Below are positions 40,691 to 45,598 of a DNA stretch of 64,000 bases, one piece after another. Source of the DNA: Pseudomonadota bacterium (GTDB lineage: Bacteria > Pseudomonadota > Alphaproteobacteria > Rhizobiales > Aestuariivirgaceae); NCBI GenBank assembly GCA_049323275.1, contig JBMOOM010000058.1:11177-75176 (forward strand). The letters are read 5' to 3'. A program made the position numbers and the translations under genes. The number at the start of each line of letters is the position of its first letter. Within the stretch, counting starts at the first letter, position 1. The notes beneath the pieces are model-generated. The model made no database searches. It was given only the letters and a program-made list of their open reading frames with translations, and was not told where the DNA came from.

Positions 40691-41764
40691 TTATGGTTGC
40701 CTGCCGTGCCGGCGCAGCGTCTCGGCGCGCGAGCCGAGATAGTGGTAGATCATGTTGACCGCCATCTTGGCGCTGATCTGGCTCGAATCGAAATACGGAC
40801 AGAGCTCGACGACATCGAGAATGTCGCAGCCATACTGGCCGGCGATACGGGCGAACAGGATCGCCTCGCGGCCCTTGAGGCCGTAGCATTCGGGCGACGT
40901 CGAGCCCGGCATGCAGCTCATGTCGATGGAGTCGGTGTCCCAGGTGAAATAAAGCGTGTCGGCATCCTTCTTCACGCGCTCGAAGACCTCGCGCGCGCAC
41001 GCCTCGAGGCCACGCTCGACGACCTCGGGCATGGCGACGACGCGGATCTCGTTGTCGACATAGAAGTCCCACCAGTCCTTAGGGTTCAGGCCGTTGCGCG
41101 AGCCCAGATGCGCCATGTTGCGGGCCGAGACATTGGGCAGATCGAGGGCGCGCGGCGCGCCCGAGCAGTTGGTGATGGGATTGCCGGCCCAGTCGGGGCC
41201 GGCATCGAGATGGCTGTCGACATGGAGGTAGCCCATACGGCCGGCGCCGGTGTAGCGCGACAGCGCCTTGGCGCCGGGGATCGGCAGTGAGTGATCGCCG
41301 CCGAACAGGATGACCTTGGCGCCGCCCTCCAGGCATTCGGTGACGTAATCGGTGGTGTAGTCCTGCGACCTGGCATTGTTGCCCGGCACATTCGGCACAT
41401 CGCCGCAGTCGACGACACGAAAGAAGCTCAACAGGTCGACGTCATATTCGAACATGTAGGGAAAATACTGCGTCGTCGCCTCGCGCAATGCCGAAGCGCC
41501 TTGCGAGGTGCCGGCGCGGACGATCTGGCCCTGGTCCCAGGGGACGGCGAGAAAGCAGATCTTGGCGCCCATCGCGCGGATCTTGTGGCGGTCGGGCGGG
41601 CAATAGGGCGCGCCCATGAAGGTGGCGAGGCCGCGCGACTTGAAGGCGCCATTATGCAGTTTGGGCGAATAGATATGGTCGAGCGGGCCGTGCTGCTCAG
41701 CCGGACCTTGATGCTGATGCGGCGTGAAGCGCCATGGGGTGGTCTCCGATCTCTCCTCTCGCAT
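40691..41764 (-). CDS. Ureohydrolase alpha subunit, catalytic; probable dimethylguanidine hydrolase (MfmA-like)
   Basis: Intact ligands H158 (GGDH), D183/H185/D187 (HVDSHLD), D276/D278 (WDTDSID); TNCSG at 198-202; loop PGSTSPE at 286-292. Confidence 0.82.
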   Translation of the reverse strand: MREERSETTPWRFTPHQHQGPAEQHGPLDHIYSPKLHNGAFKSRGLATFMGAPYCPPDRHKIRAMGAKICFLAVPWDQGQIVRAGTSQGASALREATTQYFPYMFEYDVDLLSFFRVVDCGDVPNVPGNNARSQDYTTDYVTECLEGGAKVILFGGDHSLPIPGAKALSRYTGAGRMGYLHVDSHLDAGPDWAGNPITNCSGAPRALDLPNVSARNMAHLGSRNGLNPKDWWDFYVDNEIRVVAMPEVVERGLEACAREVFERVKKDADTLYFTWDTDSIDMSCMPGSTSPECYGLKGREAILFARIAGQYGCDILDVVELCPYFDSSQISAKMAVNMIYHYLGSRAETLRRHGRQP

Positions 41765-43000: not shown

Positions 43001-43684
43001 TCATCTCCCGGCGGATTTAGTCCCGCCCGCATAATGCAAGAGCCGCCAGATGACGGTTTTGAGCGTCTTCATCGCATCGGGAATCGGCGCGCCATTCGGC
43101 ATGAAGCTGCCGAAGTAGATGCCGTCGATATTGCGCGAGATGAAGGCGGCCATCTCTTCCGCGTCGGGGCAGGTGAAGAGGCCCGCGGCCTGTCCCTTGC
43201 GAATGCAATCGGCCAGGATCTTCTTCTCGGTTTCGTAGAAGTCCTCGACGAAGCTGTCGATGAATTTCGGTCCGCCGTCATCGGCATGACCGACATTGAC
43301 GAACATGATGCGCACCACGCTGCGCAGCGTTTCCGACATCTCGACATTGAGATCGAGATAGGCGTCGAGCCGCGCGACCGGACTGTCATGGCGCGTGAGC
43401 ACGGCGCCGTAATTGGTCATCAGCCGGTCGAGCGCGTGCAGCACCGAGGACTGATAGAGAATATCCTTGCTCTTGAAATAATAATAGATCAGCGAATGCG
43501 CCACGCCGAGCTTCTTGGCGACGAGCGGAATGGTGACCTTCCTGTAGTCCTCTTCGGCGAAGCATTTGAGCGCAGCCTCGAGCAGCGAGTCGGCGCGCGC
43601 GCCCGGATTCCGATAGAGCCGGTTCTTGGCGCGCTTCACCGATTTCACGCGGTCTGCGAGGTGGCTGAGGGCCAGGGATTCCAT
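43001..43684 (-). CDS. TetR/AcrR family regulator leading the hydrolase operon
   Basis: LLEAALKCFAEEDYRKVTIPLVAKKLGVAHSLIYYYFKSKDIL; start uncertain. Confidence 0.9.
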   Translation of the reverse strand: MESLALSHLADRVKSVKRAKNRLYRNPGARADSLLEAALKCFAEEDYRKVTIPLVAKKLGVAHSLIYYYFKSKDILYQSSVLHALDRLMTNYGAVLTRHDSPVARLDAYLDLNVEMSETLRSVVRIMFVNVGHADDGGPKFIDSFVEDFYETEKKILADCIRKGQAAGLFTCPDAEEMAAFISRNIDGIYFGSFMPNGAPIPDAMKTLKTVIWRLLHYAGGTKSAGR

Positions 43685-43700
43685 GGTGCGTTGGCAATAT

Positions 43701-43869
43701 TTGACAGTTGTTTCAAGATAATCTGCACATGCTTTGACAGTTGTGTCAATTCACATTTAAGGCCTGGCCCTTCGTTTGATCCATATTTTATTGATACATT
43801 TACGCAGGAGTTGGAATTTTTCCGGTCGTCAAACTTTTTGGCGACAAATGATTTGACAAATATGTCAAA
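43701..43869. promoter_or_regulatory. Three TTGACA-N4-TGTCAA-type operator palindromes in the divergent promoter
   Basis: 43701-43716 (TTGACAGTTGTTTCAA, one mismatch), 43734-43749 (perfect), 43852-43869 (TTTGACAAATATGTCAAA, perfect). Confidence 0.8.
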
Positions 43870-43985
43870 GTACATCAGCCTGATCGTGAGATCGCTCGTC
43901 CTGGCTGCAGAATTCATGGCGAAGACCATGCCGGACAGGTTTTCGAGCCGCTCACGCGTTCATTCAATCTTTGGAGGAGGATGGA

Positions 43986-44177
43986 ATGAGTATCTCTGCG
44001 CTGACCGACAACAGTGAAATCCGCCAGGAGCTCGATCGCAGGCTGGCGATCCTGGATGACCCCGCCTACAGCGATCCGGCGCGCGCCGACATATCGGGCC
44101 GCGAGATCGCGATCTGGTTCGCCATCGCGGCGGCGATCACCGCCGTGGCGCTTCTCTTGCGCGGCTGGGGCGCGTGA
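43986..44177 (+). CDS. Small single-TM membrane protein upstream of the permease
   Basis: GGAGGAGG RBS; 63 aa with a C-terminal hydrophobic helix; stop overlaps the permease ATG (TGATG). Confidence 0.75.
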   Translation: MSISALTDNSEIRQELDRRLAILDDPAYSDPARADISGREIAIWFAIAAAITAVALLLRGWGA

Positions 44178-45598
44178 TGGCGGTGCAGTCCCAGAAGATC
44201 ACCGGCGCCAGTGCCGCTTTCGGCACGCTGCCGGTCCTGAGAGAGGAACGCGAGCTCGGCTTCCTCGATCATTCCTGGATCAATATCGGCCTCGCGATCG
44301 CCACCTGGGCGTTCCTCCTCGGCGGCAGCACGGCGTTGGTGGTCGGCGCCCATGACGGCATCTATGCCATCGTCATCGGGAATGTGATCGGCGTCGCCAT
44401 CATGGCGGCGAGCGTGTGCATCTCGACCGGCAAATACGGGATCGAGCAGTTCACCTTGCTGCGCTCGGTCTTCGGGCCGCTCGGCATATTGATCCTGGTG
44501 GGCCTGTTTCTCGCCGTCTATGGCGTCGGCTGGTCGTCGATCCTGTCGATCATGTTCGGGCGCGCGCTGAGCGGCGTGTTCAACCAGGCCGGTGGAACCC
44601 GGATCGGCGAGAACGATCTCGGCGTGTCGCTGCTGGCGCTGGTGGCCATCGCGATCTCGTGGCTCCTGCTGTGGCGCGGGCCGACCGCGGTCAAGTGGCT
44701 CAACCGTTTCGTCGGGCCCGGCAAGCTCGTTCTGTGCGTCGGCACGCTGTTCCTGATCTTCGGCGCAAAGAGCTGGAGCGACATCGCCAGCGCGCCGCCG
44801 CTCGCACCCTTCGAGGATCCGCGGGTGAATTTCATGATCGCGGTCGAGTTCAATCTCGCCGCCGGCTTCGGCTGGTGGCCGATACTGGGCAATATCTCCC
44901 GCTTCACGCGGACACCGCGCGCGGCTTTATGGCCCAATTTGATCGGCGTGTTCGCCGCCGCCGTGCTCGGCGAGCTGGTCGGGCTGTTCGCCGCGCTGAG
45001 CCTCGGCTCGCATGATCCGACCGCCTGGATGATTCCGCTCGGCGGCATGGTCGCGGGCGTCGCGGCGCTGCTCTTCATCGGGCTCGCCAACATCACGGCG
45101 ATCGTCAGCATCTTCTATGGCATGTGCCTCGCCATGCGGCAGGCGGGCGGGCGCCATCTCGAAGCCGTCTCCTGGGGGCTGCTCACCGGCGTGCTGTTCG
45201 TGCCCGTCGCGGTGATGGCCTTCTTTCCGGGGCAGATCTACGATAATTTCTTCAAGTTCCTGGCCTGGACGGCGCTCGGCTTCGCGCCGCTCTCCGGCGT
45301 CACCGCGGTGGACTATCTGGTCCTCAGGCGCGGGCGGATCCGGCAGAGCGACGTCTATAGCGACGCCCCGACCTCGGATTATGCCTTCTGGCGCGGCATC
45401 AATCCGGCCGCCTTCCTCGCCATCGCGATCGGCGGGATCGTCTATTATCTGCTGTTCGATCCGCTGTCGCTCGCGACCCATGGCCTGTTCATCTGGCTCA
45501 GCGCGTCGGTGCCCGCCTGCTTCATCGCCGGGCTCTCCTACTACCTGCTGACCAGGGCGCTCATCATCCCCGCCAGGCTCGGCGGTTATGAGCGCTGA
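44177..45598 (+). CDS. NCS1 (cytosine/purine permease, CodB-like) transporter
   Basis: About 12 TM helices; IATWAFLLGG, GKYGIEQFTLLRSVFG, GWWPILGNISRF, VDYLVLRR, WRGINPAA. Confidence 0.87.
   Translation: MAVQSQKITGASAAFGTLPVLREERELGFLDHSWINIGLAIATWAFLLGGSTALVVGAHDGIYAIVIGNVIGVAIMAASVCISTGKYGIEQFTLLRSVFGPLGILILVGLFLAVYGVGWSSILSIMFGRALSGVFNQAGGTRIGENDLGVSLLALVAIAISWLLLWRGPTAVKWLNRFVGPGKLVLCVGTLFLIFGAKSWSDIASAPPLAPFEDPRVNFMIAVEFNLAAGFGWWPILGNISRFTRTPRAALWPNLIGVFAAAVLGELVGLFAALSLGSHDPTAWMIPLGGMVAGVAALLFIGLANITAIVSIFYGMCLAMRQAGGRHLEAVSWGLLTGVLFVPVAVMAFFPGQIYDNFFKFLAWTALGFAPLSGVTAVDYLVLRRGRIRQSDVYSDAPTSDYAFWRGINPAAFLAIAIGGIVYYLLFDPLSLATHGLFIWLSASVPACFIAGLSYYLLTRALIIPARLGGYER

What the first reader, a model, noticed from the sequence alone, without database searches (positions are those of the whole stretch)
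43685..43985. Three copies of a palindrome built from the sigma70 -35 hexamer in the hydrolase/permease control region
TTGACA-N4-TGTCAA occurs at 43734 and 43853 (perfect) and at 43701 (one mismatch) in an AT-rich divergent promoter. Each half-site is itself the consensus -35 element, so a repressor could occlude promoters firing in both directions. A further IR, GTCGTCAAA/TTTGGCGAC, lies at about 43826-43845. I know of no defined operator for this TetR. It could provide a dimethylguanidine or metformin biosensor part and a motif for finding the regulon.
Basis: partly seen in the sequence, partly recalled or inferred. Interest (0 to 1): 0.62.

Follow-up and report, generated by a model that had tools for sequence, protein, structure and literature searches.

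The report
Predicted operator of dimethylguanidine-cluster TetR
Three copies of a 16-bp palindrome between a TetR regulator gene and a transporter gene are very probably the regulator's binding sites, because the same palindrome sits at the promoters of every related guanidine- or metformin-degrading gene cluster examined; this is an ordinary repressor-operator design, but the site has not been described for this regulator.

Summary
TTGACA-N4-TGTCAA occurs at 43701 (one mismatch), 43734 and 43853 (both perfect). These are the only hits with at most one mismatch in the 64-kb window (0.06 expected), and the two perfect copies are the only ones in the 7.09-Mb genome.

The region separates tetR-hypB-hypA-dmgH alpha/beta from a small ORF plus NCS1 permease. 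The hydrolase is the dimethylguanidine (pre-metformin) type.

The palindrome recurs, with a free 4-bp spacer, in about ten independent homologous loci with TetR identity from 95% down to 45%. These include the metformin clusters of Aminobacter and Pseudomonas pMET-2. In ABC-transporter-type operons it lies upstream of the first gene. An unbiased count of all palindromes ranks it first (7 of 8 regions; the next best is in 2).

In most loci a hexamer with the A2 and T6 of a -10 box follows TTGACA at 16-18 nt, so that half-site probably serves as the -35 box.

The second inverted repeat is not conserved and is probably chance. The idea that each site blocks promoters in both directions is not supported; each site appears to serve one promoter.

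The closest known operators are the RutR box and the betI box. No operator for this regulator was found in the literature. Binding, ligand and transcription starts remain untested.

Verdict: a new member of a known kind, of moderate interest.

The parts
43701..43716 (.). Site S1, TTGACAGTTGTTTCAA (read towards tetR: TTGAAACAACTGTCAA). It is an imperfect operator copy 17-32 nt upstream of the tetR ATG, and it would cover the predicted transcription start of the tetR operon.
   Evidence: The same imperfect TTGAAA half is kept in L092 and L094. The centre-to-centre distance to S2 is 33 bp, compared with 33/34/33/32 bp in L092/L094/L098/L100.
43734..43749 (.). Site S2, the perfect palindrome TTGACAGTTGTGTCAA. 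Read on the minus strand, its TTGACA (43749-43744) is the likely -35 box of the tetR-hypBA-dmgH promoter.
   Evidence: TTGACA-N18-CAGATT lies on the minus strand. The equivalent tetR-proximal site in the metformin clusters has TTGACA-N17-TAGCGT.
43720..43725 (-). Candidate -10 hexamer CAGATT of the tetR operon promoter. This is an inference.
   Evidence: It keeps the A2 and T6 of a -10 box 18 nt after TTGACA. The simple sigma-70 scan does not report it.
43853..43868 (.). Site S3, the perfect palindrome TTGACAAATATGTCAA. Its plus-strand TTGACA is the likely -35 box of the promoter for the small ORF and NCS1 permease.
   Evidence: It is invariant except in the spacer in L092 and L094. It is followed at 17 nt by CAGCCT; compare CAACGT and CACCGT in the metformin loci and CAGGCT in L111.
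43876..43881 (+). Candidate -10 hexamer CAGCCT of the transporter promoter. This is an inference.
   Evidence: It is invariant in the three closest loci.
43001..43684 (-). TetR/AcrR-family regulator gene (227 aa), the orthologue of MetR1 of the metformin cluster and the presumed binder of S1-S3.
   Evidence: It matches Pfam TetR_N at 8e-14. It is 73-80% identical to the TetR of the Pseudomonas pMET-2 and Aminobacter clusters. The AlphaFold2 model has mean pLDDT 88.
43825..43845 (.). The second inverted repeat, GTCGTCAAA/TTTGGCGAC. I do not count it as part of the system.
   Evidence: It has 8 of 9 complementary positions. The chance expectation is 0.34 per region. Three-way identity is 14%, against 88% at S1 and S3.
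43869..43985 (+). Conserved 5' leader of the small-ORF/permease transcript (81% three-way identity). It has a predicted long hairpin at 43885-43956 and a hairpin at 43959-43990 that buries the Shine-Dalgarno sequence and the start codon.
   Evidence: The second hairpin is kept in the metformin loci with a C-G to U-A exchange. The fold energy of the whole leader is not unusual (z = -0.85).
43986..45598 (+). Regulated transporter unit: a 63-aa membrane ORF (43986-44177) overlapping the start of an NCS1 permease (44174-45598). The permease is the homologue of MetT, the metformin importer.
   Evidence: PMC13390362.
39624..43032 (-). Regulated catabolic genes downstream of tetR: hypB, hypA and the ureohydrolase alpha (40691-41764) and beta subunits. 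The alpha subunit has Ser184 and Ser288-Thr289-Ser290, the dimethylguanidine hydrolase signature.
   Evidence: PMC11399263.

Best explanation
S1, S2 and S3 are the operators of the cluster's own TetR-family repressor, the orthologue of MetR1 of the metformin cluster. One TetR dimer binds each 16-bp palindrome through the invariant half-sites TTGACA and TGTCAA; the 4-bp spacer is not read. S3 overlaps the -35 box and spacer of the promoter for the small ORF and NCS1 importer. S2 overlaps the -35 box of the tetR-hypB-hypA-dmgH alpha/beta promoter. S1, three helical turns downstream of S2, covers the start site of that promoter. Bound repressor therefore excludes RNA polymerase from both divergent promoters and limits its own synthesis. 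A small cationic guanidine compound taken up by the permease, most plausibly the pathway substrate dimethylguanidine (metformin in the derived clusters), would bind the C-terminal domain and release the repressor. Shown here: the sites exist, are unique in the genome, and co-occur with this TetR subfamily across loci. Inferred: binding, the sign of regulation, promoter positions and the inducer.
For: 1. The sites are statistically exceptional and unique to this locus.
2. Phylogenetic footprint. In the two closest loci (TetR 95% and 92% identical), the S1 and S3 windows are 88% three-way identical (S2 62%, its tetR-distal half degraded in L094), while the 103 bp between S2 and S3 is only 31% identical. 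The spacers differ between loci.
3. The same palindrome, with a different spacer each time, lies upstream of tetR or of the first gene of its operon in about ten independent loci: L096 (Aminobacter anthyllidis, 80%), L097 (79%), L011 (Pseudomonas mendocina pMET-2, 73%), L098 (62%), L100 (60%), L012 (Hyphomicrobium MAG, 54%), L104 (50%), L105 (47%), L106 (48%) and L111 (45%).
4. For L104, L105, L106 and L111, I predicted the location upstream of the first operon gene before fetching the sequence.
5. A count of every perfect 6-N(0-12)-6 palindrome in 8 independent regulatory regions ranks TTGACA-N4-TGTCAA first, present in 7 of 8. The next best is present in 2 of 8 and is a shifted version of the same motif.
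6. Background is 5 hits with at most 1 mismatch in 805 kb of unrelated loci.
7. In the 4.3-Mb genome G353 the only two perfect sites flank its TetR orthologue. On the 90-kb plasmid pMET-2 the only site with at most 1 mismatch is at tetR.
8. TetR is the only regulator gene present at every motif-bearing locus. The XRE/cupin regulator of the metformin cluster is absent from L098, L100 and L104-L106.
9. A hexamer with A2 and T6 follows TTGACA at 16-18 nt in 8 of 11 independent site groups, against a background rate of 0.156 (p = 4e-5).
10. The recognition helix H63-S64-L65-x-Y67-Y68-Y69-F70 is invariant across the 42 aligned family members.
11. The nearest named families are BetI and RutR, both of which read TTGAC/GTCAA half-sites (PMC2475637, PMC12442346).
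12. The nearest solved structure is a TetR crystallised with choline, benzamidine and a dimethylamine-type ligand, which fits a small cationic inducer.
13. Published omics data report induction of the hydrolase genes by metformin (PMC11271267).
Against: The simple sigma-70 scan finds no promoter in the region, since the proposed -10 boxes match the consensus at only 2-3 of 6 positions. The core positions of my site logo are conserved partly by construction, because the sites were picked by pattern. The independent evidence is the alignment and the palindrome count. In the metformin clusters the two permease-side sites are degenerate (2 mismatches each). Co-conservation cannot by itself exclude another factor that is encoded elsewhere. 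The inducer is pure inference.
Confidence: 0.8

Rival explanations
1. The palindromes bind a different regulator, not the adjacent TetR. Candidates are the XRE/cupin (MetR2-type) regulator of the metformin cluster or a global nitrogen or stress regulator. On this reading the sites travel with the cluster only because the whole cluster is conserved.
For: Comparative genomics alone cannot assign a site to a protein. The metformin clusters do carry a second regulator gene (PMC11271267).
Against: The window has only a cupin without a helix-turn-helix domain. L098, L100, L104, L105, L106 and L111 have no XRE/cupin regulator nearby yet keep the motif. The motif follows the TetR gene even when the transporter type (NCS1 or ABC) and the gene order change. 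A global regulator would have more perfect sites, but there are none elsewhere in 7.09 Mb or in 4.3 Mb.
Confidence: 0.07
2. The sites are only strong -35 promoter elements (TTGACA) of divergent or tandem promoters. Their palindromic partner is then a by-product, and no repressor reads them.
For: TTGACA is the sigma-70 -35 consensus, and -10-like hexamers follow at 16-18 nt.
Against: The TGTCAA half is as invariant as TTGACA. This holds even in L104, L105, L106 and L111, where transcription runs one way only. No -10 follows in the opposite direction. The fixed 4-bp gap is specific: other spacers are not enriched. S1 lies only 17-32 nt from the ATG, too close to be a -35 box.
Confidence: 0.05
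3. TetR binds the sites but acts as an activator or dual regulator, as RutR does at carAB, rather than as a simple repressor.
For: RutR, which has the most similar box, acts both positively and negatively (PMC4325133). The proposed -10 boxes are weak, which is typical of promoters that depend on an activator.
Against: A site that covers the -35 hexamer itself, plus a second site over the start point, is the classical geometry of repression. BetI1, with the same half-sites over a -35 box, is a repressor (PMC12442346). Most TetR-family proteins are repressors (established knowledge).
Confidence: 0.08

Closest known systems
RutR box of Escherichia coli (5'-TTGACCAnnTGGTCAA-3'; PMC2475637)
   Same: It is a 16-bp dyad read by a TetR-family dimer. 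The outer pentamers TTGAC and GTCAA are identical and have the same 6-bp separation. Positions 4 (A) and 13 (T), the most important for RutR, are invariant here. RutR is among the best named-family and PDB sequence matches of this TetR.
   Different: The inner positions differ: A-NNNN-T here against CA-NN-TG in RutR. The protein is not a RutR equivalog (40 bits against a cut-off of 368). RutR has many sites inside genes and senses uracil. This regulator appears to be local and is tied to guanidine-compound genes.
betI box (ATTGACG*CGTCAAT) of choline-responsive BetI, e.g. BetI1 of Ruegeria pomeroyi (PMC12442346)
   Same: It uses the same TTGAC/GTCAA half-sites. The box covers the -35 element of the regulator's own operon, so bound repressor blocks initiation. 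The inducer is a small cation. BetI is the best NCBIfam match, and the C-terminal domain matches Pfam TetR_C_6 (BetI type) weakly.
   Different: The half-sites are 2 bp apart in the betI box and 6 bp apart here. The protein scores far below the BetI cut-off (48.8 bits against 201).
MetR1, the AcrR/TetR-type regulator of the metTR1ABCaCb (mfm/mefH) metformin cluster of Aminobacter and Pseudomonas (PMC11271267, PMC13390362, bioRxiv 10.1101/2025.04.28.651035)
   Same: It is the orthologous protein (73-80% identity) with the same gene order. The same palindrome lies upstream of metR1 in L096, L097 and pMET-2.
   Different: The window's cluster is chromosomal and of the dimethylguanidine hydrolase type. 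Its intergenic region is 301 bp with three good sites, against about 700 bp with one good and two degenerate sites. None of these papers reports an operator, promoter or ligand for MetR1.
Classical TetR/tetO and QacR/IR1 divergent repressor-operator modules
   Same: The regulator gene is divergent from a transporter gene. Palindromic operators overlap the promoters. Tandem operators, autoregulation and induction by the transported compound are shared features.
   Different: The operator sequence is unrelated. Here the regulator is the first gene of the catabolic operon, and the transporter is an importer rather than an efflux pump.

Membership tests
TetR-family repressor with palindromic operator in its own control region | The regulator has the N-terminal TetR helix-turn-helix domain and an all-helical ligand domain. 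| tested here: met
   It matches Pfam TetR_N at 8e-14. The AlphaFold2 model has ten helices and mean pLDDT 88. All Foldseek top hits are TetR-family proteins.
TetR-family repressor with palindromic operator in its own control region | A dyad-symmetric site of about 15-17 bp lies in the regulator's own promoter region and is more frequent there than chance allows. | tested here: met
   Three sites lie in 301 bp, against 0.06 expected in 64 kb. The perfect copies are unique in the genome.
TetR-family repressor with palindromic operator in its own control region | The site co-occurs with the regulator across diverged loci, with conserved half-sites and a free spacer. | tested here: met
   About ten independent loci down to 45% identity carry it, and it ranks first among all palindromes.
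TetR-family repressor with palindromic operator in its own control region | The protein binds the site directly. | not testable with these tools
   This needs EMSA or footprinting.
TetR-family repressor with palindromic operator in its own control region | A ligand releases the protein and derepresses the genes. | not testable with these tools
   The only evidence is indirect: metformin induces metCaCb in published omics data (PMC11271267), and the nearest solved structure binds small cations.
RutR / RutR box | The protein reaches the RutR equivalog score. | tested here: not met
   TIGR03613 gives 40.2 bits against a cut-off of 368.
RutR / RutR box | The box is TTGACCAnnTGGTCAA, including the inner CA/TG. 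| tested here: not met
   The outer pentamers and the spacing match. Position 6 is A in 24 of 26 sites rather than C, and positions 7-10 carry no information.
BetI / betI box | The protein reaches the BetI equivalog score. | tested here: not met
   TIGR03384 gives 48.8 bits against a cut-off of 201.3.
BetI / betI box | The half-sites are TTGAC/GTCAA separated by 2 bp. | tested here: not met
   The half-sites are the same, but they are 6 bp apart here (PMC12442346).
met/mfm (metformin hydrolase) gene cluster | Gene order tetR-hypB-hypA-alpha-beta, divergent from a small ORF and an NCS1 permease. | tested here: met
   tblastn maps of the window against L011, L096 and L097 show this order.
met/mfm (metformin hydrolase) gene cluster | The alpha subunit carries the metformin-type residues Cys184 and Asn288-Ser289-Ala290. 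| tested here: not met
   The window has Ser184 and Ser288-Thr289-Ser290, the dimethylguanidine hydrolase type (PMC11399263).

The most novel reading that the evidence does not exclude
This small TetR subfamily (43 clusters at 90% identity among 5.8 billion proteins; 3 of 401 genomes of the order) may be a dedicated sensor of guanidino compounds such as dimethylguanidine, metformin and, in L111, perhaps creatine. It would use one portable 16-bp box that doubles as a -35 element. The repressor-operator pair could then be moved as a unit to build dimethylguanidine or metformin biosensors. It would also be the first transcription-factor (as opposed to riboswitch) sensor described for substituted guanidines. 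In addition, the transporter mRNA may carry a second, RNA-level control through the conserved hairpin that buries the Shine-Dalgarno sequence.
Probability: 0.4. Interest if true: 0.55.

Novelty: new member of a known kind. Interest (0 to 1): 0.4.

Why it matters
Metformin and its breakdown products are major water pollutants. The degradation cluster has been characterised since 2022 for its enzyme and its transporter, but nothing has been reported on how it is switched on. A defined 16-bp operator shared by the ancestral dimethylguanidine clusters and the mobilised metformin clusters provides three things:

- A direct handle for binding and induction experiments.
- A ready part for a whole-cell biosensor.
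- A sequence tag for finding related guanidine-compound operons in metagenomes. It correctly predicted the control region in four distant operons here.

It also shows that BetI/RutR-like TetR proteins reuse TTGAC half-sites with different spacings.

Tried and rejected
- The Rfam scan of 43400-44300 found no riboswitch or other known RNA.
- The simple sigma-70 scan found no promoter, so promoter positions rest on weaker A2/T6 hexamers.
- The genome-wide search for a regulon gave nine one-mismatch sites elsewhere. Four to five lie in coding sequence. One lies between a different TetR gene and an MFS gene (C120:59416). One lies between an MgtE-like and a FecR-like gene (C19:20165). None is linked to guanidine metabolism, so I reject a wider regulon.
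- A one-mismatch site 16 kb from the G353 cluster lies inside a gene.
- The second inverted repeat is rejected as not conserved.
- The genome-contig scan gave only two true relatives, and a search of 401 genomes of the order gave 3. Comparative data therefore came mainly from metagenome and Logan contigs.
- L013 (42% identity) and L109 (39%) show no motif in the sequence available. The L013 locus does not reach the start of its hydrolase operon, so this is uninformative.
- Literature searches for an operator, EMSA or biosensor for this regulator found nothing relevant.

Full report
**Observation**

The intergenic region 43685-43985 lies between the ATG of a minus-strand TetR gene (43001-43684) and a plus-strand 63-codon ORF (43986-44177) that overlaps the start of an NCS1 permease (44174-45598). 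It contains three sites:
- S1, 43701-43716: TTGACAGTTGTTTCAA, one mismatch.
- S2, 43734-43749: TTGACAGTTGTGTCAA, perfect.
- S3, 43853-43868: TTGACAAATATGTCAA, perfect.

These are the only matches with at most one mismatch in the 64-kb window. The expectation is 0.06, and none of 100 shuffles reached three. In the whole 7.09-Mb, 64% G+C genome the only perfect copies are S2 and S3. Spacer 4 gives 2 perfect and 10 one-mismatch sites, whereas spacers 0-3 and 5-10 average about 0.2 and 2.7.

**Context**

Downstream of tetR on the minus strand lie hypB, hypA and two arginase-family genes. The arrangement is that of the published metTR1ABCaCb / mfm / mefH metformin cluster (PMC11271267, PMC13390362, bioRxiv 10.1101/2025.04.28.651035). 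The TetR-plus-permease segment is 76% identical in DNA to Pseudomonas mendocina, P. hydrolytica and Pseudomonas sp. KHPS1 plasmids.

The alpha subunit here has Ser184 and Ser288-Thr289-Ser290. This is the signature of dimethylguanidine hydrolase (DmgH), the proposed chromosomal precursor of metformin hydrolase, rather than Cys184 and Asn-Ser-Ala (PMC11399263). The flanking genes are housekeeping genes (purE/purK, fba, pgk, tkt). This is therefore a chromosomal DmgH-type cluster.

**Comparative test**

The TetR belongs to a small family: 43 clusters at E <= 1e-10 among 5.8 billion proteins, and 3 of 401 genomes of the order. I fetched loci spanning 95% to 45% TetR identity.

*Closest relatives.* In L092/L093 (95%) and L094/L095 (92%) the three sites sit at the same positions. 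An alignment shows S1 and S3 88% three-way identical. The 103 bp between S2 and S3 are only 31% identical, and the spacers differ between loci (CAAC, CTTT and TGGA at S2; TATT and AAAT at S3).

*More distant loci.* The same dyad with yet other spacers lies upstream of tetR in:
- L096 (Aminobacter anthyllidis, 80%).
- L097 (79%).
- pMET-2 of P. mendocina (73%; one mismatch).
- L098 (62%).
- L100 (60%).
- L012/G353 (Hyphomicrobium MAG, 54%; two perfect sites).

*Prediction test.* In L104, L105, L106 and L111 (50-45%), tetR sits inside a longer operon behind ABC-transporter genes; in L111 an arginase-family gene and a creatinase gene are also present. I predicted that the site should lie before the first gene of the operon, and then fetched longer flanks. 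In each case the only good match in 14-21 kb is in that intergenic region:
- L104: TTGACACTACTGTCAA.
- L105: TTGACAGGTCTGTCAA.
- L106: TTGACAAGTCGGTCAA.
- L111: TTGACACGTCAGTCAA.

*Controls.*
- Unrelated TetR loci give 5 hits with at most one mismatch in 805 kb.
- A count of every perfect 6-N(0-12)-6 palindrome in eight independent regulatory regions puts TTGACA-N4-TGTCAA first, in 7 of 8 regions. Nothing else is in more than 2 of 8. This test does not depend on the pattern I was given.
- In genome G353 the only perfect copies in 4.3 Mb are the two beside its TetR.
- On the 90-kb plasmid pMET-2 the only hit with at most one mismatch is at tetR.

TetR is the one regulator gene common to all motif-bearing loci. 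The XRE/cupin regulator of the metformin cluster is missing from most of them, and the window has only a cupin without a DNA-binding domain.

**Promoter geometry (inferred)**

The simple sigma-70 scan reports nothing. However, a hexamer with the two key -10 positions (A2, T6) follows TTGACA at 16-18 nt in 8 of 11 independent site groups. The background rate is 0.156, giving p = 4e-5. L111 adds a ninth such case (CAGGCT at 17 nt).

In the window:
- S2, read towards tetR, gives TTGACA-N18-CAGATT. This predicts a transcription start about 28 nt before the ATG, inside S1.
- S3, read towards the permease, gives TTGACA-N17-CAGCCT. This predicts a leader of roughly 100 nt.
- No -10-like box follows any site in the opposite direction.

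The picture is thus one operator over the -35 box of each divergent promoter, plus a second operator (S1) over the start point of the tetR operon. S1 lies 33 bp, or three helical turns, from S2. The same tandem spacing (32-34 bp) is seen in L092, L094, L098 and L100. The idea that each site blocks promoters in both directions is not.

**The regulator**

- The recognition helix (H63-S64-L65-x-Y67-Y68-Y69-F70) is invariant in the 42-sequence family alignment.
- The AlphaFold2 model is confident (pLDDT 88). It shows an extra basic N-terminal helix (residues 4-23) before the canonical fold.
- The nearest solved structures, by sequence and by fold, are a Saccharomonospora viridis TetR crystallised with choline, benzamidine and a dimethylamine-type ligand (TM-score 0.8).
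- The best named families are BetI and RutR, both far below their cut-offs.
- This fits a small cationic inducer, but the ligand is inference only.

**Comparison with known operators**

- The RutR box is TTGACCAnnTGGTCAA (PMC2475637). It has the same 16-bp length, the same outer pentamers and the same spacing, but different inner bases.
- The betI box is ATTGACG*CGTCAAT. It uses the same pentamers 2 bp apart, covers the -35 box of betI1C, and mediates repression (PMC12442346).

The present site is a third spacing and inner-base variant of the TTGAC/GTCAA theme. It is bound, I infer, by a protein that is neither RutR nor BetI.

None of the papers on the metformin or dimethylguanidine clusters describes an operator, promoter or ligand for the regulator. 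Searches for EMSA or biosensor work found nothing. The held library is incomplete, so prior publication cannot be excluded.

**What is not supported**

- The further inverted repeat (43825-43833 / 43837-43845) has 8 of 9 complementary positions. It is expected by chance at 0.34 per region, and only 14% of its columns are conserved in the closest relatives.
- There is no evidence for a regulon beyond this locus. The nine one-mismatch sites elsewhere are in coding sequence or next to unrelated genes. One lies in the divergent region of another TetR/MFS pair, probably the operator of that paralogue.

**Limits**

The conservation in my site logo is partly circular. The non-circular support is the alignment, the palindrome count, the successful predictions and the genome-wide uniqueness.

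**Verdict**

It is a new member of a known kind: a local TetR repressor with a RutR/BetI-like dyad that overlaps -35 boxes. Its interest is moderate. The design is unsurprising, but it is a concrete and apparently unpublished handle on the regulation of dimethylguanidine and metformin degradation, and a usable biosensor part.

Noticed in passing
window 43869-43990; L096, L097, L011 upstream of the small ORF: The leader between S3 and the small ORF is 81% identical across the three closest loci. It is predicted to form a long hairpin (43885-43956) and a second hairpin (43959-43990) that pairs UCAUUC...GAAUGA and AUCUUU...GAGGAU, burying the GGAGGAGG Shine-Dalgarno sequence and the AUG. The metformin loci keep this second hairpin with a compensatory C-G to U-A change (UCAUUU...AAAUGA). 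It is absent in L012, L098 and L100. There is no Rfam match, and the fold energy of the whole leader is not unusual (z = -0.85). It may be a translational control element.
   Followed up: partly
L011 6362-6556 (P. mendocina pMET-2): The 63-codon membrane ORF upstream of the NCS1 permease has an in-frame TAA at codon 40 in pMET-2, which removes its transmembrane helix. It is intact in the window and in L097. The small protein may therefore be dispensable for metformin uptake in Pseudomonas.
   Followed up: partly
genome contig C120:59416-59431 (outside the window): TTGACAACTATGTCCA lies in the divergent region between another TetR-family gene and an MFS transporter gene. It is probably the operator of that paralogue, and it shows that this dyad type is reused.
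   Followed up: partly
L111 3571-10672; L104-L106: The same TetR subfamily and box control operons with ABC transporters in place of the NCS1 permease. In L111 the operon holds an arginase-family gene plus a creatinase, which suggests that the subfamily is tied to guanidino-compound catabolism in general.
   Followed up: partly
L011 6037-6077; L096 and L097 equivalents: In the metformin clusters the intergenic region has grown to about 700 bp. The permease side carries two degenerate sites 25 bp apart, whose inner halves (TGTCA...TGACA) are the conserved ones. In pMET-2 an AT-rich stretch lies between them and the tetR site.
   Followed up: no
window 43001-43684 (protein residues 4-23): The TetR has a conserved basic N-terminal helix (KSVKRAKNRLYRN) ahead of the canonical helix-turn-helix. 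In some TetR proteins such extensions contact the minor groove (recalled from memory: SimR). I did not test this here.
   Followed up: no
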